This document shows, piece after piece, positions 11,012 through 38,486 of a DNA stretch of 64,000 nucleotides. The notes under the pieces were generated by a model. The model was not told the DNA's origin. It saw nothing but the letters and a program-made list of their open reading frames with translations, and searched no databases. Both the position numbers and the translations under genes were made by a program. Source of the stretch: Candidatus Omnitrophota bacterium. Lineage in GTDB: Bacteria; Omnitrophota; Omnitrophia; Omnitrophales; Aquincolibacteriaceae. Position 1 is the first letter of the stretch, and every line of letters starts with the position of its first letter. The stretch covers positions 18,780-82,779 of the forward strand of contig CAISGE010000027.1 of the NCBI GenBank assembly GCA_903884815.1, in the 5' to 3' direction.

Positions 11012-11039
11012 TTCGATTCGTGGCTTCTTCTGCTATAAT
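11012..11039 (+). promoter_or_regulatory. putative promoter for tRNA-Thr: weak -35 TTCGAT, 16-nt spacer, extended -10 TGcTATAAT
   Basis: TGCTATAAT at 11031-11039, about 20 nt upstream of the tRNA 5' end. Confidence 0.4.
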
Positions 11040-11058
11040 TCCGACCATCCCGGTTCAT

Positions 11059-11131
<73 letters not shown>

Positions 11132-11140
11132 TTCTTTAAA

Positions 11141-11192
11141 GTGACAGGCCGCTTCCACCTCGTGGAATCAATTGTGGCCCGTCACTTTTTTT
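11141..11192. terminator. hairpin (GTGACAGGCC...GGCCCGTCAC, one mismatch) followed by T7. Likely a terminator for tRNA-Thr and positioned at the 3' end of convergent rpoN.
   Basis: Seen directly: 10-bp stem, large loop containing a sub-hairpin, TTTTTTT at 11186-11192. Confidence 0.45.
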
Positions 11193-25872: not shown

Positions 25873-25983
25873 ACACCTTTCACAAGCTGCAGACAGACCT
25901 TTTCCCAAAAAAAGTCACAACCTTTCGAATCATTTGAAGCATTGTTTCCTGTAAAATCATTTAATTTCATTCATTCGTATCTG

Positions 25984-26011
25984 TTGATTTAGTTCCCGCT
26001 TTACGTACAAT
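25984..26011 (+). promoter_or_regulatory. putative sigma-70 promoter TTGATT-16-TACAAT upstream of korA
   Basis: AT-rich 187-bp intergenic region. Hexamers seen directly. Confidence 0.4.
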
Positions 26012-26059
26012 AGCCCCTATATTTCTTTTAACATCTTTTTTGCAAAAGAGCTCGATCGT

Positions 26060-27133
26060 ATGGAACATGAAAAAATGCTGGTGATGGGCAATGTGGCAAT
26101 GTCGGAGGCTGCCATAAGAGCAGGTTGCCGTTTTTACGCGGGCTATCCCATCACGCCACAAAATGAAGTCAGCGAGTATCTTGCCTCAAAGCTTCCGGCC
26201 GCTGGAGGAGTTTTCGTCCAGGCAGAGTCTGAGCTTGCCGCAATCAATATGGTCTACGGTGCCGCTTCAACAGGCGAAAGAGCCATGACCTCTTCCTCAA
26301 GCCCCGGCATCAGTCTTATGCAGGAAGCCATTTCCTTTATTGCCGCCGCACAGATCCCTTGTTTTATCGCAAATATCATGCGCGGTGGACCAGGACTCGG
26401 AAATATCCAAGGCTCTCAGGCGGATTATTTTCAGGCCACACGGGGCGGGGGACATGGGGATTATCGCCTCATTGTGCTGGCGCCGTGGTCGGTCCAGGAA
26501 ATGTATGACCTCACGACGCTCGCCTTTGAACTTGGCGACAAGTACCAGAATCCCGTCATGCTTCTGGCCGATGGCATCCTCGGACAAATGGCGGAAGCGA
26601 TCGAGTTCCGGGAACCCGTCGCGAAGAAAAAGGTTCCAAAGCCATGGGCGCTGACAGGCTGCGAAGGACGCAAGCCCAATGTCATACGGACGCTCTACCT
26701 CCAGCAAAAAGACGCTTTGGAAGAAAAAAACGCGGAACTCCAGGCAAAGTACGACAAGATCACCGCAGAACTCCAGCTTTCCGAAACCCGGTTCGCGGAA
26801 GATGCCGATATCGCCGTCGTGGCATACGGAACACCGGCACGCATCGCGCATTGGGCCATCAAAAAAGCACGCGAGCAGGGCGTGAAAGTCTGTCTTTTCC
26901 GCCCTATCACCCTGTGGCCTTTTCCGGTACTCGAACTCCGGAAAGTGGCCCGTCACTGCCGGAAAATTCTTGTGGTGGAAATGAGTCAGGGACAAATGAT
27001 CGAGGATGTGCGCCTCGCGAGAATTCCCGCAACCGTCGTGGACCCCAAAATAGAATTTATGGGACGAGGCGGGGGATGGTACCCGAAGCCGAAAGAATTG
27101 CTGGCCAAGATCCTGGAGGTTGCAAAGCCATGA
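26060..27133 (+). CDS. korA: 2-oxoacid:ferredoxin oxidoreductase subunit alpha
   Basis: GNVAMSEAAIRAGCRFYAGYPITPQNE...AESELAAINMVYGAASTGERAMTSSSSPG, matching the KorA/PorA family. Confidence 0.85.
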   Translation: MEHEKMLVMGNVAMSEAAIRAGCRFYAGYPITPQNEVSEYLASKLPAAGGVFVQAESELAAINMVYGAASTGERAMTSSSSPGISLMQEAISFIAAAQIPCFIANIMRGGPGLGNIQGSQADYFQATRGGGHGDYRLIVLAPWSVQEMYDLTTLAFELGDKYQNPVMLLADGILGQMAEAIEFREPVAKKKVPKPWALTGCEGRKPNVIRTLYLQQKDALEEKNAELQAKYDKITAELQLSETRFAEDADIAVVAYGTPARIAHWAIKKAREQGVKVCLFRPITLWPFPVLELRKVARHCRKILVVEMSQGQMIEDVRLARIPATVVDPKIEFMGRGGGWYPKPKELLAKILEVAKP

Positions 27134-27861
27134 ACGCCGAGAACCGCACGATCCGGAGCGGCCGCATGCACTATTGCCCCGTTTGCGGGCATACGATCGC
27201 TCAGCGTCTCATCGGGGATGTCATGGACGAGCTCGGTATCCGGGAAAGAACGATAGGGACCGCGCCGGTGGGTTGCGCCGTGCTTCTCTATGATTATTTC
27301 AACTGCGATATTATTGAGTGCCCGCACGGCAGGATTCCCGCCGTCGCCACGGGGATCAAAAGGATGCGGCCCGACAATATCGTGTTTGCTTACGGCGGAG
27401 ACGGCGACCTTCTTTCGATCGGACTCGCGGAAACCATTCACTGCGCGAACCGCGGCGAAAATATCACAATGATCTTCATCAATAATGCCGTCTACGGAAT
27501 GACCGGGGGGCAAATGGCGCCCACGACGCTCATCGGTCAAAAGACCATCACGACGCCGGAAGGCCGGATGTCCACAGAAACCGGATCGCCCCTAAGGATC
27601 TGTGAAATGTTCGCAACGCTCTCGAGTCCTGTTTTCATCGAACGCGTTGCGGTACACGACGCCCCGCACATGCAGCGTGCGAAGCAGGCGATCAGGAAGG
27701 CTTTTGTGAATCAGATCGAAGGAAAGGGTTTCTCTTTCGTCGAGGTGCTTTCAATGTGCCCGACCCATTGGCGCATGGGCGGCAAGGAATCCTGCCAATT
27801 CGTCGGCAATGAAATGGCCGGCTATTTTCCGATCAAAAAATTCAGGGATGTGGACGGATGA
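27130..27861 (+). CDS. korB: 2-oxoacid:ferredoxin oxidoreductase subunit beta (TPP-binding)
   Basis: CPVCGH...GGDGD...NNAVYGMTGGQ TPP motif. ATGA overlap with korA. The ORF-track start at 26644 is an out-of-gene extension. Confidence 0.85.
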   Translation: MNAENRTIRSGRMHYCPVCGHTIAQRLIGDVMDELGIRERTIGTAPVGCAVLLYDYFNCDIIECPHGRIPAVATGIKRMRPDNIVFAYGGDGDLLSIGLAETIHCANRGENITMIFINNAVYGMTGGQMAPTTLIGQKTITTPEGRMSTETGSPLRICEMFATLSSPVFIERVAVHDAPHMQRAKQAIRKAFVNQIEGKGFSFVEVLSMCPTHWRMGGKESCQFVGNEMAGYFPIKKFRDVDG

Positions 27862-28409
27862 TCGAAGAAAAAGTTTTTGTCGCGGGATTCGGCGGGCAGG
27901 GAGTCGTCGTGGCGGGGAACATCCTCGCTCATGCCGCACTGGAGGAGGGCCGTCATATTCTCGGGATGGTCTCCTACGGGGTCGAAGTCCGCGGAGGCGC
28001 GTCCCACAGCTTTGTCATCATCTCAGACCAAGAAATCGATTGCCCCATCATCGATGAAGCCACGCTCGGATTTGTGCTCAGCCAGGCGGCTTATGAGAAA
28101 TTCAAGACCAAAACGCGCCCTGACGGGGTTCTCTTCATCGATTCTACACAGGTGGGGAATGTGGATCCCGCGCAAACAACAGGCACCATCATCCAGATTC
28201 CCGCCACCCAGATGGCCCGCGAGATCGGGAACGAGCGCGTGACGAACATGATCATGCTGGGAGCCGCCATCCAGAAAACAGGCATCGTCAAGATGGCGAG
28301 TGCCGTCAAGGTCCTGGGCAAAGTCTTTAAAGGCCTCCGCAAAGATCTTATCTACGTCAACGAAAAAGCCCTCTCCACGGGCGCAGACCTCATGCGCCAG
28401 GCACATTGA
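27858..28409 (+). CDS. korC: 2-oxoacid:ferredoxin oxidoreductase subunit gamma
   Basis: VAGFGGQGVVVAGNILAHAA is the gamma-subunit signature. ATGA overlap with korB. Confidence 0.85.
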   Translation: MIEEKVFVAGFGGQGVVVAGNILAHAALEEGRHILGMVSYGVEVRGGASHSFVIISDQEIDCPIIDEATLGFVLSQAAYEKFKTKTRPDGVLFIDSTQVGNVDPAQTTGTIIQIPATQMAREIGNERVTNMIMLGAAIQKTGIVKMASAVKVLGKVFKGLRKDLIYVNEKALSTGADLMRQAH

Positions 28410-28484
28410 TCCCTCGCTTTTAATACCACTTTTGATATTCAGGGCGGGAAATTCTGCGGGTGCAGGGTGCGAAAATTTTATTGC

Positions 28485-29228
28485 CTACAGCTTATCACTT
28501 AGCAAAGCTCCAGCTTTATACCTCTTCGATGTGCGGTAGCTCCAAAACTTCAGACCTTCCCATAACGCGAAGCCCATGATTTTCAGATTGACGGAAGATT
28601 TGCCCCATTGACGGCCGCGGTGATTGGAGGGGATCTCCTTGATGCGAAATCCAAGATCGTGGGCCTTCACAATGATCTCGGGAAGCACAAAGAGAGATTT
28701 CGAGGTAAGGTCGATCCGGTCGAGGACTTTGCGGCTCCAGGCCTGCGACCAGTTGTAGTCATTGATGCGGATCCTGAACAGATAGTTGAGAAGAAAGATA
28801 TAGATCACGGACAAAAAGAACCGGAAAAGCTGATAAGCGTTCCTCTGCCATCTCACCCCGAGCACCAGATCCGCTTCATCCCGCAGAAAGATATTCACAA
28901 AATCAGGGATCTCCGAAGAATCGAACTCCTCGTCCGCCCCCACGTACATGAGGTATTTCCCGCGCGCCGCAGCCATACCATCTTTCAGAGAACACGTATA
29001 GCCCTTGTTCTGGTCATGAATAATAAGTCGGGTGTGGGGATATTTCGGGATTTCCGATTTAAGGACGGGGAGGGTCTTGTCTTTGCTGCCATCCTCGATA
29101 AGTATCACTTCCCAGTTCCATTCCGGATGAGCGTTGAGAACGGTAAAGAGATTCGCAAGCATCCGAGCGATATTCTCTTCCTCGTTGTAGACCGGCGTAA
29201 TAAAACTGATGAATACGGGGGAATCCAT
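28485..29228 (-). CDS. GT2 polyprenyl-phosphate sugar synthase-like (Dpm1/ArnC-like)
   Basis: ISFITPVYNEEENI...LIEDGSKDKT...GADEE. Start at MDSPVF (29228). Divergent from the carbamoyltransferase gene. Confidence 0.8.
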   Translation of the reverse strand: MDSPVFISFITPVYNEEENIARMLANLFTVLNAHPEWNWEVILIEDGSKDKTLPVLKSEIPKYPHTRLIIHDQNKGYTCSLKDGMAAARGKYLMYVGADEEFDSSEIPDFVNIFLRDEADLVLGVRWQRNAYQLFRFFLSVIYIFLLNYLFRIRINDYNWSQAWSRKVLDRIDLTSKSLFVLPEIIVKAHDLGFRIKEIPSNHRGRQWGKSSVNLKIMGFALWEGLKFWSYRTSKRYKAGALLSDKL

Positions 29229-29348
29229 ACGTGTAAGATTAATGTTTTTAGAGGCCGATGTCAATTGTCGCTCGAAGGGTTTTCTGTTAACATGCCCGAC
29301 ATTCGTGACAGAACGCGCGTTTGAGCGCAAACGATCGGGAGAAAATTC

Positions 29349-31166
29349 TTGAACGTCCTTGGTATTTCAGCTTTTTATCATGACAGCGCGTCCTGCCTCA
29401 TCCGGGAAGGGGCGATCGTCGCCGCGGCCCAGGAAGAGCGTTTTACGCGCAAAAAACATGACTTCTCTTTTCCCCGGCACGCCATCGATTTCTGCCTCAA
29501 GAAAGGCGAGCTCCGATCTTCAGATCTTGATTGTGTCGCATTCTACGACAAACCATTCCTCAAATTCGAACGTATCCTGGAGACTTATCTGGCCTACGCG
29601 CCTCACGGGATCGCATCCTTTCTTCAGGCCATGCCGCTTTGGATCAAACAGAAACTCTGGATGAAAGACTACCTCCAGACCGAACTCAACTTTAATGGCA
29701 AGATCATTTTCCCCGAACACCATCAGTCGCATGCTGCATCCGCATTCTTCCCTTCGCCATTTGAAGAGGCCGCATTCCTCACCATGGACGGCGTCGGAGA
29801 ATGGGCCACCACCAGCTACGGCGTCGGAAAAGGAAACAAGATCGAGATTCAGGCCGAGATCCGGTTTCCCCATTCCCTCGGACTCCTGTATTCCGCTTTC
29901 ACTTATTACACCGGCTTCCGAGTCAACTCCGGCGAATACAAGGTGATGGGCCTCGCGCCTTACGGCAAGCCGATCTTCAAGGACCTCATCCTCAAAGAAC
30001 TGATCGATCTGAAAGAGGACGGCTCCTTCAAGCTCAATATGAAATACTTCGATTACGCTGCAGGTCTCCGCATGACAAATGGCCGTTTTCATAAACTTTT
30101 CGGCGCGCCTCCGCGAAAGCCCGAGTCCCGGGTCACTCAACGTGAAATGGACCTCGCTCGCTCGATCCAGGAAGTCACTGAGGAAGTCATGCTTCGAGTC
30201 ACGCGACATGTCCATGAAGTGACGGGGCAGAAGAATCTTTGCCTCGCCGGAGGTGTCGCACTGAACTGCGTCGGCAATGGCCGAATTCTTCGTGAAGGTC
30301 CGTTCAAAAATATCTGGATACAGCCTGCCTCAGGGGACGCCGGCGGCGCTTTGGGAGCGGCCTCCTTTGCATGGCACCAATACCTGGACAAGCCACGGAC
30401 CGTAAATGGAAAAACCGACAGCATGCGAGGCTCTTATCTAGGGCCCGAATACCCAAACGAAGACATCGAGTCATTCCTCACGGAACATCGAATCCCTTTC
30501 ACGAAACTCACGGACAAGGAACTCCCGGAAAAGATCGCGGATCTTATCGCTCAGGAAAAAGTTATTGGCTGGTTCCAGGGTCCTATGGAGTTCGGCCCCC
30601 GTGCCTTGGGCGGTCGCTCCATTCTCGGGGACTCCCGCTCTCCCAAAATGCAGGAGCAAATGAATCTCAAGATCAAGTTCCGTGAGAGCTTCAGGCCGTT
30701 CGCGCCATCCGTCACGCTTGAAAGAGTGTCGAATTATTTTGAACTCGAGACCGAAAGTCCCTATATGCTTCTCGTAGCGCCGGTGCAAAAGAAGTGGCGC
30801 CGTGAAATGACGGAGACTGAAAAGAAACTGGAGGGGATCGAACTACTGAACGTAAAGCGCTCCGAGATCCCAGCCGTCACGCATGTCGATTATTCCGCAC
30901 GCGTCCAAACCATCACCCCGGTGCAAAATCCCCGGTTTTACGCCCTACTCAAAGCCTTTGACGAGAAGCATGGATGCCCCGTCATGATCAATACCTCCTT
31001 CAATGTGCGCGGAGAGCCGATCGTCTGCACGCCTGAGGATGCATTCCGCTGTTTTATGCGCACGCAAATGGACCATCTGGTCCTGGGTAATTATCTGCTT
31101 ACGAAGACAGAACAGAAGCCCCTTGAAAAAGACAGCGAATGGATGAAAGAGTTCGAACTCGATTGA
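29349..31166 (+). CDS. carbamoyltransferase, NodU/CmcH/NovN/TobZ/SxtI family (TTG start)
   Basis: LGISAFYHDSA N-terminus, HH(Q/L)SHAASAF, and the C-terminal YrdC/Kae1-like half with NTSFN. 605 aa. Confidence 0.85.
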   Translation: MNVLGISAFYHDSASCLIREGAIVAAAQEERFTRKKHDFSFPRHAIDFCLKKGELRSSDLDCVAFYDKPFLKFERILETYLAYAPHGIASFLQAMPLWIKQKLWMKDYLQTELNFNGKIIFPEHHQSHAASAFFPSPFEEAAFLTMDGVGEWATTSYGVGKGNKIEIQAEIRFPHSLGLLYSAFTYYTGFRVNSGEYKVMGLAPYGKPIFKDLILKELIDLKEDGSFKLNMKYFDYAAGLRMTNGRFHKLFGAPPRKPESRVTQREMDLARSIQEVTEEVMLRVTRHVHEVTGQKNLCLAGGVALNCVGNGRILREGPFKNIWIQPASGDAGGALGAASFAWHQYLDKPRTVNGKTDSMRGSYLGPEYPNEDIESFLTEHRIPFTKLTDKELPEKIADLIAQEKVIGWFQGPMEFGPRALGGRSILGDSRSPKMQEQMNLKIKFRESFRPFAPSVTLERVSNYFELETESPYMLLVAPVQKKWRREMTETEKKLEGIELLNVKRSEIPAVTHVDYSARVQTITPVQNPRFYALLKAFDEKHGCPVMINTSFNVRGEPIVCTPEDAFRCFMRTQMDHLVLGNYLLTKTEQKPLEKDSEWMKEFELD

Positions 31167-31179
31167 TCACACCCTTTTC

Positions 31180-31623
31180 TTGAATGAGAATCAGAATGGA
31201 AAAAACATGGTCATCGCGGAAATAAAGAAAATTGAGTCGAGCGAAAAAAAACTCAGGGAGTTCGGATTCCTGATCGGAGGCGTGCTCTGCGCTCTCGCGT
31301 GCCTCCTTATGTGGCGGGGAAGGGGAAGCTACCGCTATTTTCTAATTCCAGGTATCACCCTCGTGATCGCGGGAGCCCTCTCACCGCGCGTGCTGAAACC
31401 CTTTCAAAAAGCGTGGATGACGCTCGCGATACTGATGAACTGGGTCATGACGAGGGTCCTCCTCTCTGTCCTTTTTTATCTCGCAATCACACCCATCGGA
31501 CTCTTCATGCGCCTTACGGGTAAGGATATCTTGAACGAACGACTTGAGCCTCGCAAGTTAAGCTATTGGAAGATCCGCCCCTCCAACCCTCACGCCCCCG
31601 CTGAATACGAAAAGCAGTTTTGA
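31180..31623 (+). CDS. SxtJ-like small membrane protein of unknown function (2-3 TM)
   Basis: 147 aa, immediately after the carbamoyltransferase. Size and position match the SxtJ-type proteins that commonly follow O-carbamoyltransferase genes. Recalled from memory, not searched. Confidence 0.5.
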   Translation: MNENQNGKNMVIAEIKKIESSEKKLREFGFLIGGVLCALACLLMWRGRGSYRYFLIPGITLVIAGALSPRVLKPFQKAWMTLAILMNWVMTRVLLSVLFYLAITPIGLFMRLTGKDILNERLEPRKLSYWKIRPSNPHAPAEYEKQF

Positions 31624-31689
31624 GTTTTTCGTTTCGGCCGCGGGCATCATCTGATAGTATATCGCGCGTTCGTTTACATAGGAGGCCCT

Positions 31690-31848
31690 TTGGGCAAGCT
31701 TGGCATTCTTAAAGAATTCTGGGATTTTCTGAAAGTTCGGAAGAAATGGTGGCTAACGCCGATCGTTTTGGTAATGATCCTCTTGGGCGCTTTGATCGTC
31801 TTTTCTCAAGGCTCCGCACTTTCTCCTTTTATCTATACGCTTTTCTAG
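31690..31848 (+). CDS. SxtK-like very small protein (52 aa, one TM). Absent from the ORF track because it is under 60 aa and starts with TTG.
   Basis: GGAGG 4 nt upstream of the TTG. Translation LGKLGILKEFWDFLKVRKKWWLTPIVLVMILLGALIVFSQGSALSPFIYTLF. Same frame and direction as the SxtJ-like gene. Matches the size of SxtK-type partners. Confidence 0.45.
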   Translation: MGKLGILKEFWDFLKVRKKWWLTPIVLVMILLGALIVFSQGSALSPFIYTLF

Positions 31849-31923
31849 GAATCATGCCGCGTAAGCCCCTCAAATACCTGATGGGTTGATCGCTACAGCT
31901 TAAACAGCACCACGAATTAAGAA

Positions 31924-32718
31924 ATGGAGATTTTGAAAATGAATAAGGCCGCATTAACCGTCGTTGTCATTGCCAAGAACGAAGAGAAGCGCCTTGCCGA
32001 ATGCCTCAAAAGCGCCGCCTTTGCGGCGGAGATCGTCGTCCTGGATGACATGTCAACGGACCGGACGATTGAGATCGCCAAGTCGTTTGGAGCCAAGGTC
32101 TTCCAGCGCGCCATGGATATCGAGGGAACGCATCGGAATTACGCCTACAGCCTCGCGACACAACCCTGGGTTTTCAGCCTTGATGCCGACGAACGGATCA
32201 CTCCGGAGCTCGCAGCGGAACTCACTGCCATCGCGTCTAAACCCATCGATCAGGTTTCGGACGTTGCCTACTGCATGCCCGTGAAGACCTTCATCGGAAC
32301 GGACTGGATCCGAGGCGGAGGCTATTATCCCGCACCCAAGACGCGATTTTTCAAAAAAGGCCAGTTTAAATACGAAGACGCTCGTGTCCATCCCCGGATG
32401 TTCTATGAAGGCACCTGCGGGAACCTGAAGGGCGACATCCTTCACTATTCGAGTCCCAGCTGGGAGAACTGGCTTGCCAAGTTCAACCGCGAAACCACCC
32501 TCGAGGCCGAGAAGTGGGTAAAAGACGGTCGCCCCATGGGTCCGTGGCGTGTCTACCGAAAAGCCTGCAGCCGCTTTCTGAAATATTACTTCCAAAAGGA
32601 CGGCATCAAGACCGGGTACACGGGGTTTTTCATGTCCTTCATGCATTCGGCCTATCAGATCATAACTTTCGCGAAATACCGTGAGATGAAGCGCGCTCAA
32701 GAAGGCGCCCCCAAATAG
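31924..32718 (+). CDS. glycosyltransferase family 2 (WaaE/KdtX-like LPS core-type)
   Basis: LTVVVIAKNEEKRLAECL...VLDDMSTD...DADE. Confidence 0.8.
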   Translation: MEILKMNKAALTVVVIAKNEEKRLAECLKSAAFAAEIVVLDDMSTDRTIEIAKSFGAKVFQRAMDIEGTHRNYAYSLATQPWVFSLDADERITPELAAELTAIASKPIDQVSDVAYCMPVKTFIGTDWIRGGGYYPAPKTRFFKKGQFKYEDARVHPRMFYEGTCGNLKGDILHYSSPSWENWLAKFNRETTLEAEKWVKDGRPMGPWRVYRKACSRFLKYYFQKDGIKTGYTGFFMSFMHSAYQIITFAKYREMKRAQEGAPK

Positions 32719-32725
32719 GCGTGCC

Positions 32726-33838
32726 ATGAAAGTCCCGTATTTCGACGTCTCCAGGCAACATCAAAAGTTCGCGATCGAAGCCCAGGCCGCTCTCGAAAAG
32801 ATCCTGAAAAGCGGCGCCTATATTCTTGGCCCCGCATTGAAGGACCTCGAAGCTGAGTTCGCTGCGTATGTGGGCACCCGGTTCGCAATCGGCGTCGGTT
32901 CGGGGACGGACGCCCTGACCTTCAGCCTCAAAGCCCTCGATATAAAAAAAGGGGATGAGGTCATTGTCCCGTCTTTTACATTCACCTCAACAGCACTCGC
33001 CGTTCTGCATCTTGGGGCAATACCGGTCTTCGCCGATGTTGATGAGAAGACCTTCAACCTGGATCCCAAGTCCGTAGAGAAAGCCCTTAGCAAAAAAACC
33101 AGAGCGCTGATCCCAGTTCATCTCTTCGGCCAATGCGCCGATATGACCGCGCTCATGGCTTTGGCAAAGCAAAAAAAACTCAAGGTCGTCGAGGACGCGT
33201 GCCAGGCCCACGGCGCGCTTTGGAATAAGGTCATGGCCGGAGCTTTCGGAAACGCCGGATGTTTCAGCTTTTATCCGACCAAGAACCTCGGGGGGATCGG
33301 AGACGGCGGCATGGTCACAACCTCGGATGAAAAACTTCTGAAGCGCGTCACGCAGTACCGCAATCTCGGCAAGGGGATCGAGGATCCCTTTGTCCATGAC
33401 GAGATCGGCTGGACCAGCCGCCTCGACAGCCTCCAGGCCGCGTTCCTTAGTATCAAACTACGCTTTCTTGACGAACTGAACAGGGAACGTCGCGCGGTGG
33501 CCGAGCTTTATCACCAGAAGTTGTCCGCCACACCGCTCATCCTTCCGCGGGAAACAACCCAAGCCTATCATGTTTATCATCTTTACGTTGTCCGTGTCAC
33601 GGACGAGAAACGGGATGCTTTAAAAGCCCATCTCGCTGCGGAAGGTATCCCGACCATGGTCCATTACGCGACGCCGGTCGATGCGCAGCCCGTCATGAAA
33701 AAACAAAAGATCCGGAAGGTCAAGTTGCCTGTCACGGAAATTCTCCGTGAGGAAGTATTGACGCTCCCACTTTTCCCGGGCATGACGGAGCCCGAGATTG
33801 CGGCTGTGGCCGGTTCGATCAGAAAATTTTACAGTTAA
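32726..33838 (+). CDS. DegT/DnrJ/EryC1/StrS-family PLP-dependent sugar aminotransferase (ArnB/PglE-like)
   Basis: About 370 aa. GSGTDAL, conserved Lys region FSFYPTKNLG, fold consistent with sugar 3-/4-aminotransferases. Confidence 0.85.
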   Translation: MKVPYFDVSRQHQKFAIEAQAALEKILKSGAYILGPALKDLEAEFAAYVGTRFAIGVGSGTDALTFSLKALDIKKGDEVIVPSFTFTSTALAVLHLGAIPVFADVDEKTFNLDPKSVEKALSKKTRALIPVHLFGQCADMTALMALAKQKKLKVVEDACQAHGALWNKVMAGAFGNAGCFSFYPTKNLGGIGDGGMVTTSDEKLLKRVTQYRNLGKGIEDPFVHDEIGWTSRLDSLQAAFLSIKLRFLDELNRERRAVAELYHQKLSATPLILPRETTQAYHVYHLYVVRVTDEKRDALKAHLAAEGIPTMVHYATPVDAQPVMKKQKIRKVKLPVTEILREEVLTLPLFPGMTEPEIAAVAGSIRKFYS

Positions 33839-33918
33839 TGTTTCAGGAGCGTTTGCCCCAACGGGGCAACCTCGCAATATAAACAAAACTCAAACCATCT
33901 TACAAAGAGAAAAAACTC

Positions 33919-34479
33919 ATGACCAAGCCTTCAAAAAAAGTTGTTTTCATTGACCGGGACGGTGTCATCAATGTCGATCTCTGGAAATATGTCGAAACCT
34001 GGAAAGAATTCAAATTTGAAAAGGGCGTTCTGGATGCCCTTCTCACCCTTACTGAAAAAGGGTTCGATATCTACATTATCTCGAATCAAGCAGGCGTCGG
34101 AGACGGGATCTTTACTGAAGCGGCCATGTGGCAGGTCCACGAAAAAATGGTAGCGGTGATGGCCAAGAAAGGCATCAAGATCCGCGGTGCCCGCTTCTGC
34201 ACACACGGAAAGAAGGAACGCTGTGAATGCCGAAAGCCGAAGACACTGCTGCTCGAAAAGGCTGTAGCGGGTATTACCTTCGACCGGAAGAAAACTTTTT
34301 TCGTGGGGGACAAATTGAGCGACCTCGAGGCGGGGATCAATTTCGGTGTTCGCACTCTCCTTGTCCGTACGGGATATGGCGCCGAAACCGAGAAGAAACT
34401 GGGCAAAAAGTTCCGCCCCGACCATATTGTGGACAATCTTAAAGACGCCGTTCCCATCATCGTCAAGGCAGCCGCATAA
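33919..34479 (+). CDS. HAD-IIIA phosphatase, GmhB-like (D,D-heptose 1,7-bisphosphate phosphatase / histidinol-phosphatase family)
   Basis: VFIDRDGVIN (DxDGT/V motif I), ISNQ, Zn-binding CxH...CxC, GDKLSD motif. Confidence 0.75.
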   Translation: MTKPSKKVVFIDRDGVINVDLWKYVETWKEFKFEKGVLDALLTLTEKGFDIYIISNQAGVGDGIFTEAAMWQVHEKMVAVMAKKGIKIRGARFCTHGKKERCECRKPKTLLLEKAVAGITFDRKKTFFVGDKLSDLEAGINFGVRTLLVRTGYGAETEKKLGKKFRPDHIVDNLKDAVPIIVKAAA

Positions 34480-34486
34480 GCGCCCT

Positions 34487-35602
34487 ATGAAAATCGACAT
34501 TATTCATGCCACGGCAGGGGAAGGACACCGCAAGATCGCGATGGCCGTCCAGGACGGGCTGACACGCCTCCACCGGACCGATCTCCAGATCCGGCTCATG
34601 AATTGCCTCGATTATACCGATGCCACTTTTCAGAAAACCTACGCGCCCATTTATTACTGGGCGGTCCGCCACGCGCCTAATCTTTGGGGCGGCTCCTACG
34701 AGATACTGGACCAGGCTTGGGTGTATCAGCCACTTCGCCCTTTGCGGGCACTGACTAACAATGTTCATGCCAAAGCTTTACTCGACGATGTTGTAAAGAA
34801 CCAACCGGATGTCATCGTCTCGACCCATTTCCTGCCACCCGAGATCCTGGGTCGCGCCAAGCAAAAGGGCCTTATCAAATCTAAGATGATCACGGTTATT
34901 ACGGATTTTTATCCGCATACGTTTTGGGTGAACCCCGGAACCGATCATTACTGGGTCATGGCCGATGAAACCAAGCAAGATCTCATCCGCCGCGGCATTC
35001 CGGCCGGAATCATCACCGTCGGAGGCATTCCGGTCGTCCCGACTTTCAAGCCCTCAGGAAGGAAGAAAGAGATACTGAAAACGCACGGACTTGATGAAAA
35101 CCGATATACAATCCTCCTCACCAGCGGCAGTTTTGGTCTCGGCCCCCAAGAAGCGATCCTCGAAGAACTTAAAGCGTTCAAAGACCGGGTCCAGTGCTTT
35201 GTGGTCTGTGCCAACAACAAAGAGCTCAAAGCGATCCTGGAAAGCAAGGCCTATCCTTTCCCCGTCAAGATCTTCGGATTCATTGATTTCATGCCCGAAC
35301 TTATGGAGGCAAGCGATCTCATGGTGGCAAAATCGGGCGGGTCCACAACCTCCGAAGCGCTCACCAAAGGCGTCGTGATGGTCGTGATGGCCCCGATCCC
35401 CGGGCAAGAGACCCGGAATGTCAAACTCCTCAAGCTCCGCGACGCCGCGTATTTTCTCAATGACCCGCACGAGATCCACGCGATCGTCAAGGGTATCCTG
35501 GAGGATCCTGCTTCATTGCAAAAGAAACGCGATGCTATCAAGCGACTGGCGAAACCCGATGCCTCCGATGATCTGGTGAAACTGATCCTCGGATCCTGCT
35601 AA
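34487..35602 (+). CDS. MGDG-synthase/UgtP-like diacylglycerol glycosyltransferase (GT28 family)
   Basis: N-terminal MGDG_synth-like region (IIHATAGEGH...) and a C-terminal GT-B half (KSGGSTTSEAL...PIPGQE), collinear with Bacillus UgtP. Confidence 0.75.
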   Translation: MKIDIIHATAGEGHRKIAMAVQDGLTRLHRTDLQIRLMNCLDYTDATFQKTYAPIYYWAVRHAPNLWGGSYEILDQAWVYQPLRPLRALTNNVHAKALLDDVVKNQPDVIVSTHFLPPEILGRAKQKGLIKSKMITVITDFYPHTFWVNPGTDHYWVMADETKQDLIRRGIPAGIITVGGIPVVPTFKPSGRKKEILKTHGLDENRYTILLTSGSFGLGPQEAILEELKAFKDRVQCFVVCANNKELKAILESKAYPFPVKIFGFIDFMPELMEASDLMVAKSGGSTTSEALTKGVVMVVMAPIPGQETRNVKLLKLRDAAYFLNDPHEIHAIVKGILEDPASLQKKRDAIKRLAKPDASDDLVKLILGSC

Positions 35603-35607
35603 ATTCC

Positions 35608-36321
35608 ATGTCACTGCAGAAAACCCGATTATTCCTCAAAACGCTCAAAGAGGACGGAATCGAGATGGTGCATCTTCCGAAAAAGTCTCCCCATGCCATC
35701 GCTCTGAACTCCTCAGAGACAAGGAATATTAATATTTCACCCAAGTCGGCCACTTCAGATCAGCCCGGAATTTCAACCCTCCGCACCGAAGTCGAATCCT
35801 GCAAACGCTGCTCTGAACTTGCCCGTACGCGCAACAAAGTCGTCTTCGGGAGTGGCAGTACCTCCGCAAAACTTGTTTTTGTGGGAGAAGCCCCGGGCGC
35901 GGATGAAAACGAGCAGGGGCTCCCATTCGTCGGCCGCGCCGGACAGCTCTTGACCAAGATCATCGAGGCTATGGGCCTTACCCGCGACCAAGTTTTCATC
36001 TGCAATGTCTTGAAATGCAGGCCGCCGGAGAATCGTCCGCCCGCACCCAAAGAAGTTGAGAACTGCCGCCCTTTTCTCAAACGTCAGCTAGAGATCATCA
36101 AGCCTCAAGTGATCGTCGCGCTCGGCAATCACGCGGTGAAGGCTCTGCTCCAGAATGAATCGGGAATATCTTCTTTGCGCGGAACCTTCCAGAAATACGA
36201 AGGTATCCCGGTCATGTGCACCTATCATCCCGCCTATCTTCTGCGCAGTCCGGGGGAGAAACGCAAAGTTTGGGAGGACATGAAGAAAGTGATGAAGATG
36301 CTTGAGGGTAAGGGAGAGTGA
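35608..36321 (+). CDS. uracil-DNA glycosylase, family 4 (Fe-S type), with an approximately 60-aa N-terminal extension
   Basis: CKRCSEL...VFGSG...[27 protein letters not shown] signature. Confidence 0.8.
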
Positions 36322-36392
36322 GTCCCTCTTCAAAAAACATCTCCCCAAAGTCTCCCTCGACTAATCCGCAGGCAGACGAAAATATCTCCGGG

Positions 36393-38486
36393 ATGATCGC
36401 CCAGGTGGCTGTGCCACTTCCGATCCCCACGGTCTTCAGTTACTCGATTCCTGAGCCTCATCGAGCGAAAGCCATTCCCGGGGTCCGCGCCACCGTGCCT
36501 TTCCGCAACACCGAGATCACAGGCTACATCGTCGCCGTCGTACCGATTTCAAGCTACGAGGTTGAAATGGGTAAGAGGTCCGTCAAGATGAAGCCCTTGA
36601 TTGGAATCTTGGACGATCAGCCTGTCCTCTCAACCGGAATGCTGCAACTCACAAAGTGGGTGAGTGAGCATTATGGCTCCAGCTGGGGAGAAGCAATCGA
36701 GAACGCGCTCCCGCGCTGGGTTAAATACGGAAAGAAAGTCGAGAAATACATAGAAAAAGCCAAAAAGGCGATCGGCACACACGCTGCGCCTCCTCAGGAC
36801 TACGCCTTATCCGATGAACAACACAGCGCCTTTGAGATCATTCAAAAGGTTCTGAGCGGGAATGCCGCGACTAAAAAACCCATTCTGATCTATGGCGTCA
36901 CGGGCAGCGGCAAAAGTGAATTGTATATCCGTGCCATCCGGCAGACTTTAAAACAGGACCGGGCCGCTATCTGTCTAGTCCCGGAGATCGCACTCACCGA
37001 ACAACTTCAAAGATTTTTCGCCGGCCATTTCGGGGAAGCGCTTGAGATCCTCCATAGCAAGATGACCGACGGCGAGCGATTCCTCACCTGGAAACGCATC
37101 GAAATGGGGACTTGCAAGGTGGTGCTCGGCCCTCGTTCCGCGGTGTTCGCGCCTGTCCCGAACCTCGGCCTCCTCATTATGGACGAAGAACACGAAGGCT
37201 CGTACAAGCAGGAGACCACGCCCCGGTATCACGCCCGTGAAGTGGCCGCCAGGCGCGCCCAAAATGAGGGCGCTTTATTCCTCATGGGCACGGCAACGCC
37301 ATCGCTTGAAAGCATGGAGATGGCAGAACGAGGCGTGATCGACCGAATTGATCTGACCCAGCGCATTGATCTCAGAGCCATGCCTAAAGTCGACGTGATT
37401 GACCTCAAACGCTATCAGGGGGACAAACGCCCGAGCCTTCTTTTTTCACCGCCCCTCATGCGCGAGATCGAGACCAATCTCAAAAATCAGGAAGGCACGA
37501 TGCTGCTCCTCAACCGTCGCGGCTTTTCCACATCGATCCGCTGTCCGACCTGCTCCGAGATCGAGAAATGCAAACACTGCGAAGTCGCGCTCACCTTTCA
37601 TCAGGAACAAAATCTCCTGCTCTGCCACTATTGCAATTATCAGAAAAAAGTCACGTCCGTGTGCGGGGAATGCGAGTCGCCGCTTCTGCGCTTCATGGGA
37701 TTCGGCACGGAAAAGATCGAAAGCGAGGTGGCCCGGTTTTTCCCGAGCGCCCGAATCGCCCGTCTCGACGCCGACACCACCCAAAAACGTGGCTCGCATG
37801 AGAAGGTCCTTGAGGATTTCCGGGAGCGAAAGATCGACATCCTCATCGGAACTCAGATGATCGCCAAAGGCTTCGATTTTCCTCACGTCACGCTGGTCGG
37901 CGTCGTGCTCGCGGATGTGGGACTCCGACTGCCGGATTTCCGTTCGAGTGAACGAACCTTCCAACTCCTGACCCAGTTCGCCGGTCGCGCGGGGCGAGGA
38001 ACGAAACCCGGCCGGGTCATCATCCAGACCTGGATGCCGGAACATCCGAGCATCCGTTTCGCAAAAGAGCATGATTTCCTCAGCTTTTACGCGCACGAAA
38101 AACAGTGCCGAGAGGAATTCCATTACCCGCCGTACCGCTCCCTCATCAATATCATCATCCGGTCCCACGATGAGAAAAAGGCGTATCTTTTCGCGCGAGA
38201 GCTGCGCGATCTGCTCCGAAAAGAACTGGGGACCCCTGCCGCGGTCAACGCCGATCTCCCGTCTGCGGTGACAGGTCTCGAAATCATCGGCCCCGCGCCG
38301 CTACCTTTCTATAAACTCCGTGGCCATTTCAGGTGGCATGTCATGCTCAAGATCCCCCCGCTTCATGCTAGCATTCCGTCAGGGGATCTCACGATCACAG
38401 CCAAGATCTATCAACTTCTAATGGACCTCAAGAAGCCCTCAGGAGTTGCTTTTCAACTCGACGTAGAACCCCTAAATATTTTGTAA
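36393..38486 (+). CDS. priA: primosomal protein N' (PriA helicase). The ORF-track GTG at 36318 is an alternative start.
   Basis: N-terminal MIAQVAVPLPIPTVFSY matches PriA starts. Walker A VTGSGKSE, DEEH box, Cys-rich Zn-binding insert (CPTCS...CKHC...CHYC...CGEC). Confidence 0.9.
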   Translation: MIAQVAVPLPIPTVFSYSIPEPHRAKAIPGVRATVPFRNTEITGYIVAVVPISSYEVEMGKRSVKMKPLIGILDDQPVLSTGMLQLTKWVSEHYGSSWGEAIENALPRWVKYGKKVEKYIEKAKKAIGTHAAPPQDYALSDEQHSAFEIIQKVLSGNAATKKPILIYGVTGSGKSELYIRAIRQTLKQDRAAICLVPEIALTEQLQRFFAGHFGEALEILHSKMTDGERFLTWKRIEMGTCKVVLGPRSAVFAPVPNLGLLIMDEEHEGSYKQETTPRYHAREVAARRAQNEGALFLMGTATPSLESMEMAERGVIDRIDLTQRIDLRAMPKVDVIDLKRYQGDKRPSLLFSPPLMREIETNLKNQEGTMLLLNRRGFSTSIRCPTCSEIEKCKHCEVALTFHQEQNLLLCHYCNYQKKVTSVCGECESPLLRFMGFGTEKIESEVARFFPSARIARLDADTTQKRGSHEKVLEDFRERKIDILIGTQMIAKGFDFPHVTLVGVVLADVGLRLPDFRSSERTFQLLTQFAGRAGRGTKPGRVIIQTWMPEHPSIRFAKEHDFLSFYAHEKQCREEFHYPPYRSLINIIIRSHDEKKAYLFARELRDLLRKELGTPAAVNADLPSAVTGLEIIGPAPLPFYKLRGHFRWHVMLKIPPLHASIPSGDLTITAKIYQLLMDLKKPSGVAFQLDVEPLNIL

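What the first reader, a model, noticed from the sequence alone, without database searches (positions are those of the whole stretch)
31690..31848. Unlisted 52-codon TTG-initiated ORF (SxtK-like) missed by the ORF track
The gap between the SxtJ-like gene and the next GT2 contains GGAGG-cccT-TTG, followed by an uninterrupted 52-codon frame. It encodes a peptide with a basic N-terminus (KVRKKWW) and one hydrophobic helix, in the same direction as its neighbours. It is below the 60-aa cutoff and uses a non-ATG start, so automated annotation would likely skip it.
Basis: seen in the sequence. Interest (0 to 1): 0.55.

Follow-up and report, generated by a model that had tools for sequence, protein, structure and literature searches.

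The report
SxtK-family (DUF5989) membrane microprotein gene
The 52-codon ORF is a real, strongly conserved gene for a tiny membrane protein of the known DUF5989/SxtK family that travels with a carbamoyltransferase; public pipelines already annotate it, but its conserved C-terminal tyrosine motif suggests a testable way it might work.

Summary
The ORF at 31690-31848 (+) exists as described: AGGAGG, a 4-nt spacer, a TTG start and 52 codons. It is a genuine gene. It matches Pfam PF19451 (DUF5989) over its full length (90.8 bits, cut-off 27). A diverged relative encodes the identical peptide despite 25/159 nucleotide differences and starts with ATG at the same codon. The family has about 3,900 clusters at 50% identity. 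In 68 of 80 species genomes sampled it sits beside a carbamoyltransferase and an SxtJ homologue, as sxtI-sxtJ-sxtK do in saxitoxin clusters. "SxtK-like" is therefore right. The claim that annotation would skip it is wrong: the identical protein is on record in NCBI, JGI, ENA and Logan, and homologues are named "DUF5989 family protein". The window is an LPS/glycan neighbourhood with no toxin genes found. SxtJ/SxtK function is still unknown in the literature. I found that 94% of family members end in FxYxxF-COOH, the "acyl shuttle" motif of DltX and PatA. I also found that membrane-anchored SGNH enzymes are their commonest extra neighbour (31/80 loci). This suggests, without proving, a tyrosine-borne carbamoyl relay. 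Homology to DltX is not demonstrable, and this window has no SGNH gene.

The parts
31690..31848 (+). DUF5989/SxtK-family microprotein gene (TTG start, 52 codons plus TAG stop)
   Evidence: ORF list. Pfam PF19451, 90.8 bits, E=5.6e-26, model positions 2-49 of 49. Identical protein P0001 is in public collections. Synonymous-only divergence from L001.
31680..31685 (+). Shine-Dalgarno-like AGGAGG, 4 nt upstream of the TTG start
   Evidence: Read directly from the sequence. The start position is supported by an ATG at the homologous codon in L001/L003/L004 and by conserved MGK(L/I)S N-termini in homologues.
31720..31761 (+). Codons 11-24: conserved cytoplasmic juxtamembrane block W-D-F-L-K-V-R-K-K-W-W-L-T-P (basic, predicted to face the cytoplasm)
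   Evidence: Per-residue conservation: W11, F13, R17, K18, K19, W21, L22 and P24 are each at least 95% conserved. K18 and P24 are invariant in the unfiltered alignment A1. Net charge of the N-terminal segment is about +2.8.
31753..31803 (+). Codons 22-38: single predicted transmembrane helix LTPIVLVMILLGALIVF
   Evidence: The maximum 15-residue hydropathy, 3.1, falls at residues 24-38. G33 and L35 are conserved.
31828..31845 (+). Codons 47-52: C-terminal hexapeptide F-I-Y-T-L-F-COOH, which matches the FXYXXF 'acyl shuttle' motif; Tyr49 is invariant
   Evidence: 441 of 471 family sequences end exactly in FxYxxF-COOH. P46, F47 and Y49 are invariant in A1. The motif definition comes from PMC12148441. 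The background rate is 3 of 6,767 ORFs.
31207..31623 (+). SxtJ-family multi-pass membrane protein gene (138 aa from the ATG at 31207; an alternative TTG at 31180 gives 147 aa)
   Evidence: Pfam PF19588 SxtJ, 50.3 bits. The gene caller used the 138-aa form in L002. It is linked to K in 68 of 80 genomes.
29349..31166 (+). NodU/CmcH/TobZ-type O-carbamoyltransferase gene (605 aa)
   Evidence: Pfam Carbam_trans_N (349.8 bits) and Carbam_trans_C (246.1 bits). It is linked to K in 69 of 80 genomes in five different gene orders.
28485..29330 (-). Flanking GT2 glycosyltransferase gene (context, not part of the core module)
   Evidence: Pfam Glycos_transf_2, E=2.5e-25.
31924..33838 (+). Downstream GT2 glycosyltransferase (31924/31939-32718) and DegT/EryC1-type sugar aminotransferase (32726-33838): the glycan-biosynthesis context
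   Evidence: Pfam and the gene calls in L002.

Best explanation
The ORF is a translated gene for a 52-residue, single-pass inner-membrane microprotein of the DUF5989/SxtK family. It is the third component of a widespread three-gene module (carbamoyltransferase, SxtJ, SxtK) that here most likely O-carbamoylates a cell-envelope glycan. Those points are shown or strongly supported. The proposed mechanism is inferred. The basic N-terminal block sits at the cytoplasmic face, and the C-terminal tail with its invariant Tyr49 in F-I-Y-T-L-F-COOH sits at the periplasmic face. The cytoplasmic carbamoyltransferase makes carbamoyl-AMP from carbamoyl phosphate and ATP. With SxtJ as the membrane partner, the carbamoyl group is loaded onto Tyr49. 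This would parallel the way DltB loads D-alanine onto the FXYXXF tyrosine of DltX, or the way PatA acetylates its own C-terminal tyrosine. A membrane-anchored periplasmic SGNH enzyme, encoded elsewhere in this genome, would then move the group onto the glycan. My estimates for the separate steps are: real gene 0.99; functional subunit of the carbamoyltransferase module 0.85; covalent tyrosine shuttle about 0.4. The stated confidence refers to the full mechanism.
For: Real gene: (see the observation check). The start codon is confirmed by an ATG at the homologous position.

Module: 69 of 80 species genomes from many phyla keep a carbamoyltransferase next to K, and 68 of 80 also keep SxtJ. Five gene orders occur (CT-J-K 39, J-K-CT 16, K-J-CT 7, J-CT-K 5, CT-K-J 1), so linkage survives rearrangement. 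K is as conserved as the enzyme: mean pairwise identity is 60% for K, 59% for the carbamoyltransferase and 29% for SxtJ over 65 genomes. K is 100% identical between the window and L001, where the carbamoyltransferase is 88% and SxtJ 70% identical.

Glycan context: GT2, DegT, LptD, UDP-glucose dehydrogenase and RmlD are in the window. Glycosyltransferases are frequent neighbours family-wide.

Shuttle idea:
- 94% of family members end exactly in FxYxxF-COOH, and F47 and Y49 are invariant in A1. This is the published acyl-shuttle motif of DltX and PatA (PMC12148441).
- The tyrosine lies 3 residues from the C-terminus and about 11-12 residues after the TM helix in both K and DltX.
- The charge distribution predicts N-in/C-out.
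- The motif is rare by chance: 3 of 6,767 ORFs.
- SGNH/GDSL is the most frequent extra neighbour family: 15 of 369 neighbour genes by Pfam and 31 of 80 loci with an iterated profile. About 15 of these directly abut K or the triad, and nearly all have an N-terminal membrane anchor. They keep the G-D/E-S, Asn and His catalytic blocks, and 5 of 10 sampled also hit the AlgX acetyltransferase SGNH model at E <= 0.01.
- K pairs with an SGNH gene even where no carbamoyltransferase or SxtJ is nearby (L035, L040).
- In L038 the K-J-CT-SGNH operon lies beside an MBOAT + FIYSTF-microprotein + SGNH operon whose SGNH belongs to the same family.
- sxtL, next to sxtK in saxitoxin clusters, is a GDSL lipase.
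- HypF, a related carbamoyltransferase, carbamoylates the C-terminal Cys of HypE (PMC9633730).
Against: - No homology to DltX can be shown. There is no Pfam cross-hit. hhalign gives probability 2.7% over only 11 columns, and the DltX profile was shallow at 12 close sequences. The pairwise score is not significant once the motif is held fixed (p about 0.10).
- No MBOAT or other known transmembrane acyl conduit accompanies the module.
- SxtJ has no invariant His or other obvious catalytic residue, has no solved relative, and could not be modelled. How a carbamoyl group made in the cytoplasm would reach a periplasmic tyrosine is therefore unexplained.
- 61% of loci, including this 64-kb window, have no SGNH gene nearby.
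- The topology is only predicted from charge and hydropathy.
- Saxitoxin is a small soluble molecule, which fits poorly with an extracytoplasmic relay.
- No experiment on any SxtJ, SxtK or DUF5989 protein was found.
Confidence: 0.4

Rival explanations
1. K is a non-covalent structural subunit. Together with SxtJ it tethers the soluble carbamoyltransferase to the inner membrane and helps present a lipid-linked (for example undecaprenyl-linked) sugar at the cytoplasmic face. The conserved C-terminal motif would be a protein-protein contact, and the linked SGNH enzymes would be esterases that trim or edit carbamoyl or acetyl groups. This matches the literature's guess that SxtL is a decarbamoylase.
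For: - Linkage to the carbamoyltransferase and SxtJ is tight.
- The conserved basic juxtamembrane block faces the cytoplasm, where the enzyme is.
- There is no transmembrane conduit such as an MBOAT.
- Class III carbamoyltransferases transfer directly to substrate hydroxyls.
- Most loci lack an SGNH gene.
- SxtL is annotated as a decarbamoylase.
- This reading needs no new chemistry.
Against: - A passive anchor rarely shows 100% identity at a synonymous divergence of about 1.3 substitutions per site, or conservation equal to that of the enzyme.
- The strongest invariants sit in the predicted periplasmic tail, away from the enzyme.
- The tail reproduces FxYxxF-COOH exactly.
- K pairs with SGNH genes in the absence of nearby carbamoyltransferase or SxtJ genes.
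- Five of ten sampled SGNH partners also hit the model built on the acetyltransferase AlgX.
Confidence: 0.35
2. K serves another membrane role within the same pathway, such as a chaperone or insertion factor for SxtJ, a regulator of carbamoyltransferase activity, or an accessory to export or flipping of the modified glycan. In this case the C-terminal motif resembles the acyl-shuttle motif by coincidence.
For: - Function is unknown in the literature.
- Some K genes lie far from the carbamoyltransferase and SxtJ, next to unrelated genes (L049, L062, L065).
- Motif-level matches can arise by convergence or chance.
Against: - Coincidence has to cover the motif, its position at the exact C-terminus, the tail length, the predicted topology and the SGNH partner all at once.
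- Two of the only three other FxYxxF-COOH ORFs in 84 loci are also TM microproteins beside SGNH genes.
Confidence: 0.2
3. The ORF is a chance open frame or a non-coding element in the SxtJ-GT2 spacer, and it is not translated.
For: The ORF is short, has a non-ATG start and has only a 4-nt Shine-Dalgarno spacer. No expression data exist for this organism.
Against: - Pfam E=5.6e-26.
- There are thousands of homologues of the same length.
- Divergence from L001 is synonymous-only, with 0 of 200,000 random trials matching.
- The codon-position signature holds across 78 sequences.
- There is an ATG at the same codon in relatives.
- There is no Rfam match.
Confidence: 0.01

Closest known systems
SxtK of cyanobacterial saxitoxin (sxt) clusters / Pfam PF19451 DUF5989
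   Same: - It belongs to the same Pfam family.
- The size is similar (52 aa against 54 codons for sxtK).
- It has the same neighbours in the same order: carbamoyltransferase (sxtI), SxtJ, then SxtK.
- It is 57% identical to a Synechococcus protein named 'putative sxtK'.
- A GDSL/SGNH gene (sxtL-like) joins the set in relatives.
- Function is equally uncharacterised.
   Different: - No saxitoxin pathway genes were found in the parts of the window I scanned. The context is LPS and glycan biosynthesis in an Omnitrophota-like genome, so the substrate is almost certainly a sugar polymer and not a toxin.
- Direct alignment with bona fide SxtK (ABI75101) was not possible with the tools.
DltX, the membrane microprotein of the teichoic-acid D-alanylation pathway (Pfam PF12459)
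   Same: - Both are about 50 aa with a basic N-terminus in the cytoplasm, one TM helix and a short outer tail.
- Both tails end in FxYxxF-COOH, with the invariant Tyr 3 residues from the end (DltX TFIYNEF, here PFIYTLF).
- Both partner with an N-terminally anchored extracytoplasmic SGNH enzyme, which holds for 31 of 80 loci in this family.
- Both belong to a pathway that moves an acyl-type group onto hydroxyls of an envelope polymer.
   Different: - No sequence homology is demonstrable.
- The donor enzyme is a soluble ATP-dependent carbamoyltransferase plus the small SxtJ, not an MBOAT with a carrier protein.
- The group transferred would be carbamoyl, not D-alanyl.
- No covalent intermediate has been shown.
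- No SGNH gene is present in this window.
MBOAT-SGNH acyltransferase pairs with a fused C-terminal shuttle motif (PatA/PatB; also AlgI with AlgX/AlgJ, from my own knowledge of the alginate pathway)
   Same: The hexapeptide is the same and sits at the extreme C-terminus (NgPatA FIYANF-COOH). The logic of an SGNH transferase partner is the same, and 5 of 10 sampled partners here hit the AlgX SGNH model at E <= 0.01.
   Different: In those systems the motif is part of a large MBOAT that provides the transmembrane funnel and a catalytic His. Here it is on a free microprotein, and no MBOAT is in the module. L038 has a separate MBOAT system alongside.
HypF-HypE carbamoyl transfer in [NiFe]-hydrogenase maturation
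   Same: A carbamoyl-AMP-forming enzyme of the same superfamily transfers the carbamoyl group to a residue at the C-terminus of a partner protein (PMC9633730).
   Different: - The acceptor is a Cys thiol on a soluble protein in the cytoplasm.
- No membrane step is involved.
- HypF is class II and has extra domains.

Membership tests
Pfam PF19451 DUF5989 (SxtK family) | Score above the curated gathering threshold over the whole model | tested here: met
   90.8 bits against a cut-off of 27, E=5.6e-26, model positions 2-49 of 49. All 3,150 homologues listed carry PF19451.
Pfam PF19451 DUF5989 (SxtK family) | About 50 aa, with an RKKWW-type basic block, one TM helix and a C-terminal (A/S)PF(I/V)Y..F-COOH | tested here: met
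   Alignment A1 has K18, P24, P46, F47 and Y49 invariant. 441 of 471 sequences end in FxYxxF.
Pfam PF19451 DUF5989 (SxtK family) | Genomic linkage to an SxtJ-family gene and an NodU/CmcH-type carbamoyltransferase | tested here: met
   In the window the order is CT 29349-31166, SxtJ 31207-31623, K 31690-31848. Family-wide, 68 of 80 genomes have all three.
SxtK as a saxitoxin-biosynthesis protein | Sequence similarity to a protein called SxtK | tested here: inconclusive
   57% identity, E=7e-24, to 'putative sxtK [Synechococcus sp. Minos11]'. That name is itself an annotation by similarity. The reference SxtK (ABI75101) could not be retrieved.
SxtK as a saxitoxin-biosynthesis protein | Location inside an sxt cluster (sxtA, sxtG, sxtB and the other core genes) | tested here: not met
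   Neighbours are GT2, DegT, a HAD phosphatase, an MGDG-synthase-like GT, POR subunits, LptD, UDP-glucose dehydrogenase and RmlD. No toxin-pathway families were found among the genes scanned.
DltX / acyl-shuttle microprotein | Sequence or profile similarity to PF12459 DltX | tested here: not met
   There is no DltX hit at E<=10. hhalign gives probability 2.7% over 11 columns. BLASTP gives E=0.009, but the shuffle controls give p=0.028, or p=0.10 with the motif fixed.
DltX / acyl-shuttle microprotein | FXYXXF motif with an invariant Tyr at the extreme C-terminus | tested here: met
   F47-I-Y49-T-L-F52-COOH is present. It holds for 94% of the family. The motif definition is in PMC12148441, and DltX ends in TFIYNEF.
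DltX / acyl-shuttle microprotein | Single-pass topology with the N-terminus inside and the motif outside the cytoplasm | tested here: inconclusive
   This is predicted only. The N-segment charge is about +2.8 and the C-segment charge about -1, with one hydrophobic helix at residues 24-38. There is no experimental topology.
DltX / acyl-shuttle microprotein | MBOAT partner that loads the tyrosine | tested here: not met
   MBOAT is not among the 25 most frequent families in any of the three scanned batches, which together cover 369 neighbour genes of L005-L074. No MBOAT was found among the window genes scanned. The only MBOAT seen, in L038, belongs to a separate adjacent operon.
DltX / acyl-shuttle microprotein | Membrane-anchored extracytoplasmic SGNH partner that unloads the tyrosine | tested here: inconclusive
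   This is met in 31 of 80 family loci, with about 15 directly adjacent to K or the triad. The partners have an N-terminal anchor and an intact Ser/Asn/His set. It is not met in this 64-kb window.
DltX / acyl-shuttle microprotein | Covalent acyl-tyrosine intermediate | not testable with these tools
   This needs mass spectrometry or radiolabelling of K, with a Tyr49Phe control.

The most novel reading that the evidence does not exclude
DUF5989/SxtK proteins are the carbamoyl counterpart of DltX. In this reading they are free-standing tyrosine 'shuttle' microproteins that carry a carbamoyl group from a cytoplasmic ATP-dependent carbamoyltransferase, through SxtJ, to a periplasmic SGNH transferase. 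This would define a third, MBOAT- and AT3-independent route for decorating cell-envelope polymers. The route would be present in hundreds of species, including SAR11, marine Synechococcus/Prochlorococcus, CPR bacteria and DPANN archaeal MAGs. It would also imply that the sxtI-J-K-L genes of saxitoxin clusters are a recruited copy of this envelope-modification module.
Probability: 0.35. Interest if true: 0.75.

Novelty: already known. Interest (0 to 1): 0.4.

Why it matters
For this window the result is mainly housekeeping. The spacer between the SxtJ-like gene and the GT2 gene holds a real gene that belongs in any annotation, and it completes a conserved carbamoyltransferase-SxtJ-SxtK module inside an LPS/glycan locus. 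More broadly, the role of SxtJ and SxtK has been left as "unknown, thought to work with SxtI" since the saxitoxin cluster was described, and reviews from 2025-26 still repeat that. The family is very large (about 3,900 clusters at 50% identity) and occurs in ecologically dominant bacteria. Three observations together turn an uncharacterised DUF into a specific, cheaply testable hypothesis: nearly every member ends in the published acyl-shuttle hexapeptide, the peptide is as conserved as the enzyme, and anchored SGNH enzymes are its commonest additional neighbour. The tests are a Tyr-to-Phe mutant, a search for carbamoyl-tyrosine, and peptide-donor assays with the SGNH domain. If confirmed, this would extend the acyl-tyrosine relay from acetyl and D-alanyl groups to carbamoyl groups and from MBOAT/AT3 donors to a soluble adenylating enzyme.

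Tried and rejected
- **NCBIfam:** no model hits K or SxtJ.
- **Natural SxtJ-SxtK fusions:** the long cluster representatives (99-162 aa) are start over-extensions or chimeras, for example one with what I read as a RuvA-like N-terminus. None is a fusion.
- **Solved structures:** the K profile has no hit at E<=10. The SxtJ profile has only TM-composition matches at E>0.09.
- **DltX homology:** there is no Pfam cross-hit. hhalign probability is 2.7%. The collinear BLASTP alignment (E=0.009) does not survive a segment-wise shuffle with the motif fixed (p=0.10). Homology is therefore rejected as not demonstrable. The DltX profile was shallow, because only 12 close Bacillus sequences were returned.
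- **AlphaFold2 model of SxtJ without an alignment:** pLDDT 69 and pTM 0.32, with one implausible 60-residue helix. I did not use it and ran no fold search. I had no homology searches left to build an allowed alignment. A K-only model was judged uninformative and was not run.
- **Promoter and terminator scan of 28300-33000:** nothing above the shuffled expectation, and no terminator between SxtJ, K and GT2. Co-transcription is only inferred.
- **Rfam scan of 31100-32100:** one chance-level hit (CRISPR-DR47, E=0.84) outside the ORF.
- **SGNH gene in the window:** none of the family linked to K elsewhere.
- **Papers not held:** Kellmann et al. 2008 (PMC2446512) and Schultz et al. 2023 (PMC10664464). 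I cannot exclude that the latter already noted DUF5989-type proteins.
- **Literature searches:** 'DUF5989' found 0 papers. 'Acyl shuttle'/'FXYXXF' together with 'carbamoyl' found none linking them.
- **Neighbour census:** the fourth batch (L074-L083) was not scanned against Pfam. The iterated SGNH profile did cover those loci.
Full report
**1. The observation**

AGGAGG lies at 31680-31685 and is followed by CCCT and a TTG at 31690. An open frame of 52 codons then runs to a TAG ending at 31848, on the same strand as the flanking genes. The peptide is MGKLGILKEFWDFLKVRKKWWLTPIVLVMILLGALIVFSQGSALSPFIYTLF. TTG is the first possible start after the preceding in-frame stop.

**2. It is a real gene**

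- The peptide matches Pfam PF19451 (DUF5989) end to end, with 90.8 bits against a cut-off of 27 and E=5.6e-26.
- A word-indexed search of 5.8 billion proteins returned 3,150 homologues, all carrying PF19451 and nearly all 52 aa long.
- An exhaustive HMMER scan of 1.84 billion cluster representatives found 3,910 clusters at E<=0.001.
Loci L001, L003 and L004 encode the identical peptide, but the gene differs at 25 of 159 nucleotides. Twenty-two of those differences are at third codon positions, and one is TTG to ATG at the start codon.
- Outside the start codon there are 23 substitutions (pS 0.61, dS about 1.3) and no amino-acid change. Random placement of 23 substitutions gave on average 15 amino-acid changes and never fewer than 6 in 200,000 trials.
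- The other five frames accumulate 10-22 differences and contain stops.
- Across 78 sequences, column entropy at codon positions 1/2/3 is 0.94/0.37/1.62 bits. Single-difference codons are synonymous 3.2 times as often as nonsynonymous, against a random expectation of about 0.3.
- No Rfam family matches the region.

**3. It is already annotated elsewhere**

The exact 52-aa protein (P0001) is on record from NCBI, JGI, ENA and Logan on 39 contigs. Contig L002 is 100% identical to window 25690-37848, and the gene was called there at these coordinates. Close homologues are named "DUF5989 family protein [Candidatus Omnitrophota bacterium]" by NCBI. The ORF was unlisted only because of the 60-aa cut-off of the first-stage ORF list. 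The claim that pipelines would skip it is not supported.

**4. The "SxtK-like" label**

The two upstream genes are an NodU/CmcH-type carbamoyltransferase (29349-31166; Carbam_trans_N and Carbam_trans_C) and an SxtJ-family membrane protein (PF19588). In saxitoxin clusters, sxtI (carbamoyltransferase, 1839 bp), sxtJ (405 bp) and sxtK (165 bp) are listed consecutively and are followed by sxtL, a GDSL lipase (PMC2679770). A marine Synechococcus member of PF19451 is named "putative sxtK" by its depositor and is 57% identical to the window peptide (E=7e-24). I could not retrieve the reference SxtK sequence, so the link rests on the family model, the name and the synteny.

The window is not a toxin locus. 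Its genes include GT2s, a DegT aminotransferase, a GmhB-like phosphatase, an MGDG-synthase-like GT, LptD, UDP-glucose dehydrogenase, a 4,6-dehydratase and RmlD.

**5. Distribution and linkage**

They include Omnitrophota, Planctomycetota, Acidobacteriota, Gemmatimonadota, Nitrospirota, Pelagibacteraceae, Magnetospirillum, Ignavibacteria, CPR lineages, Synechococcus and a few DPANN and other archaeal MAGs.

In the 80 loci kept, a carbamoyltransferase is on the same strand within a few kb in 69, and SxtJ as well in 68. The gene orders are CT-J-K (39), J-K-CT (16), K-J-CT (7), J-CT-K (5), CT-K-J (1) and CT-K (1). Linkage that survives this much rearrangement argues for a functional unit.

Over 65 genomes, K is as conserved as the enzyme (60% against 59% mean identity), while SxtJ is far less conserved (29%). 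Between the window and L001, K is 100% identical, the carbamoyltransferase 88% and SxtJ 70%.

**6. State of knowledge**

Reviews from 2009 to 2025 and a 2026 preprint say only that SxtJ and SxtK are of unknown function and are thought to act with SxtI (PMC2679770, PMC2885083, PMC12300590, bioRxiv 10.64898/2026.06.11.731795). No paper in the library mentions DUF5989.

**7. Anatomy of the peptide**

Conservation falls into two blocks:
- a juxtamembrane W-x-F-L-x-x-R-K-K-x-W-L-x-P, just before the single hydrophobic helix (residues about 22-38);
- a tail Q-G-S-x-x-x-P-F-I-Y-x-x-F that ends the protein.

K18, P24, P46, F47 and Y49 are invariant in an alignment chosen without regard to the motif. 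In an unfiltered sample, 441 of 471 sequences end exactly in FxYxxF-COOH, and the exceptions look like read-through or mis-called ORFs. The per-residue table is circular for F47, Y49 and F52, because that set was pre-filtered on the motif. The net charge is about +2.8 before the helix and about -1 after it, which predicts N-in/C-out.

**8. The lead: an acyl-shuttle-like tail**

PMC12148441 describes DltX as a membrane microprotein whose invariant Tyr sits in a C-terminal FXYXXF "acyl shuttle" motif on the outer face. The MBOAT DltB loads this Tyr with D-alanine, and the SGNH enzyme DltD unloads it. MBOATs such as PatA carry the same hexapeptide at their own C-terminus (NgPatA FIYANF-COOH) and hand acetyl to the SGNH enzyme PatB.

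B. thuringiensis DltX is printed in PMC5541007 as MERLKEIWSRP / LTQWVAKTVYYLAILFALLWLY / GFHDTNTSTFIYNEF. K ends in PFIYTLF. In both proteins the Tyr is three residues from the C-terminus and 11-12 residues after the helix. Outside the family the motif at a C-terminus is rare: 3 of 6,767 six-frame ORFs, 1 of 573 called genes, and a composition-based expectation of 6e-5.

**9. Is it homology? It cannot be shown**

- Pfam shows no DltX cross-hit even at E<=10.
- hhalign aligns only the last 11 columns, in register on FIY, with probability 2.7%. The DltX profile was shallow, at 12 close sequences.
- BLASTP gives a collinear 28%-identity alignment with E=0.009.
- Shuffling DltX within its three topological segments beats the observed score in 2.8% of trials. 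With the hexapeptide held fixed, this rises to 10%.

The resemblance therefore consists of the motif, size, predicted topology and partner type. K is not a demonstrable member of the DltX family.

**10. Partner evidence**

I called genes roughly in the 80 loci and scanned 369 neighbour genes from L005-L074 against Pfam. Lipase_GDSL_2 is the most frequent neighbour family (4+5+6=15), ahead of GT2 (13). MBOAT and AT3 families are not among the 25 most frequent families in any batch.

An iterated profile finds one coherent SGNH family in 31 of 80 loci. About 15 of these genes directly abut K or the triad, and nearly all have an N-terminal hydrophobic anchor preceded by basic residues, so the catalytic domain should be periplasmic. 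All ten sampled members hit GDSL/SGNH models, and five also hit PF16822, the SGNH-like domain of the acetyltransferase AlgX, at E <= 0.01. The family keeps an invariant G-D/E-S block, an invariant Asn and a 94% conserved His.

In relatives of this very organism (L001, L003, L004), a TM-anchored SGNH+TPR gene is inserted between SxtJ and K.

Among the 11 loci where K has no carbamoyltransferase or SxtJ nearby:
- two have an SGNH gene next to K (L035 at 13 nt downstream, L040 divergent);
- two have a carbamoyl-phosphate synthase subunit next to K (L066, L068);
- two have polysaccharide genes next to K (L042 exosortase, L071 Wzy_C).

Two of the only three non-family ORFs ending in FxYxxF are themselves TM microproteins beside SGNH genes. 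In L038, one of them closes an operon of GT1, SGNH, MBOAT and microprotein (...FIYSTF). That operon lies convergent to a K-SxtJ-CT-SGNH operon, and the two SGNH proteins belong to the same family.

**11. Proposed mechanism and its gaps**

Class III carbamoyltransferases form carbamoyl-AMP from carbamoyl phosphate and ATP and transfer the carbamoyl group to a hydroxyl. The related enzyme HypF transfers it to the C-terminal Cys of HypE (PMC9633730).

I propose that Tyr49 of K is the acceptor and that an anchored SGNH enzyme then passes the group to an envelope glycan. From general chemistry (my own knowledge), aryl carbamates are known carbamoyl donors to serine hydrolases.

The weak points are:
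- The enzyme is cytoplasmic and the Tyr is predicted to be periplasmic, and no MBOAT-like conduit is present.
- SxtJ is the only candidate conduit. It has conserved LRxFG, an invariant Trp in LKPxxxxWM, an intramembrane TRVIL...TPIG segment and a basic tail ending in YE(K/R)QF. It has no invariant His, no solved relative and no usable model.
- 61% of loci, including this whole window, lack a nearby SGNH gene.
- A relay across the membrane fits poorly with carbamoylation of soluble saxitoxin.

I therefore rate the covalent-shuttle reading at about 0.35-0.4 and a non-covalent scaffold role at about 0.35.

**12. Verdict**

The gene and its family are already known, so the finding as submitted is ordinary. 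The added value is a specific, testable hypothesis for a large family whose function has been open since 2008.

Noticed in passing
L038 5998-12156 (Candidatus Peribacter sp. MAG): Two parallel systems lie convergent to each other. The + strand has K (5998-6159), SxtJ, the carbamoyltransferase and an SGNH gene (8213-9211). The - strand has GT1 (11476-12156), an SGNH gene (10410-11489), an MBOAT (9302-10420, PF03062 E=5e-23) and a small TM ORF ending in FIYSTF-COOH (9192-9368). The second operon has the gene content of a DltB/DltX/DltD-type system with a free microprotein, in a CPR bacterium. PMC12148441 states that MBOAT pathways other than Dlt lack such a microprotein.
   Followed up: partly
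L045 7478-8285: A second, divergent 48-aa ORF has a basic N-terminus, one TM helix and a C-terminal SPFLYFQF. It lies just upstream of an SGNH-like gene (7731-8285), in a locus that also has the canonical CT-SxtJ-K set. It is not detected by the K query at E<=1e-3.
   Followed up: partly
L001 4313-5944 (also L003 and L004): Relatives encoding the identical K peptide have a 543-aa TM-anchored SGNH+TPR gene inserted between SxtJ and K, and a different downstream set (DUF4254, GT9 heptosyltransferase, PMT-family GT, GSCFA, WcbI). The peptide is unchanged while the locus around it has been remodelled.
   Followed up: partly
L066 4317-5709; L068 907-2753: In two genomes where K is not next to a carbamoyltransferase or SxtJ, it lies next to carbamoyl-phosphate synthase genes: a CarA-type small chain in L066 and large-chain domains in L068. 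This is another link to carbamoyl metabolism.
   Followed up: no
window 31180-31689: The SxtJ start is ambiguous: TTG at 31180 gives 147 aa and ATG at 31207 gives 138 aa. The gene caller in the identical contig L002 chose the 138-aa form. SxtJ and K are in the same reading frame, separated by a single TGA (31621-31623) and 22 sense codons. This is probably coincidence, and I did not test for read-through.
   Followed up: no
L021 1867-6538: This Binatia MAG locus carries two K copies (3185-3337 and one ending at 6135) and two SxtJ-like ORFs. An SGNH gene (1867-3111) abuts the first K copy.
   Followed up: no
L073, L076, L083 (DPANN archaeal MAGs); L070 (Methanosarcinales MAG): The carbamoyltransferase-SxtJ-K module, with an SGNH gene in L073, L076 and L083, appears in contigs binned as archaea. 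Whether this reflects real lateral transfer or binning error was not examined.
   Followed up: no
window 14907-17716: Two adjacent GGDEF diguanylate-cyclase genes (one with a GAF domain) lie immediately upstream of an LptD-like gene (17713-20127) and a run of nucleotide-sugar genes (UDP-glucose dehydrogenase, a 4,6-dehydratase, RmlD).
   Followed up: no
window 34346-35602: The mechanical ORF (GTG start, 418 aa) over-extends the MGDG-synthase-like glycosyltransferase and overlaps the preceding HAD phosphatase gene. The public gene call on the identical contig is 371 aa.
   Followed up: no
SxtJ family, alignment A4 (window 31207-31620): SxtJ proteins also end in a conserved hydrophilic C-terminal motif, Y-E-(K/R)-Q-F-COOH. 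The terminal Phe is at least 90% conserved. The Tyr is present in about 16 of the 28 aligned sequences by eye, so it is not invariant. Its role is unknown.
   Followed up: no
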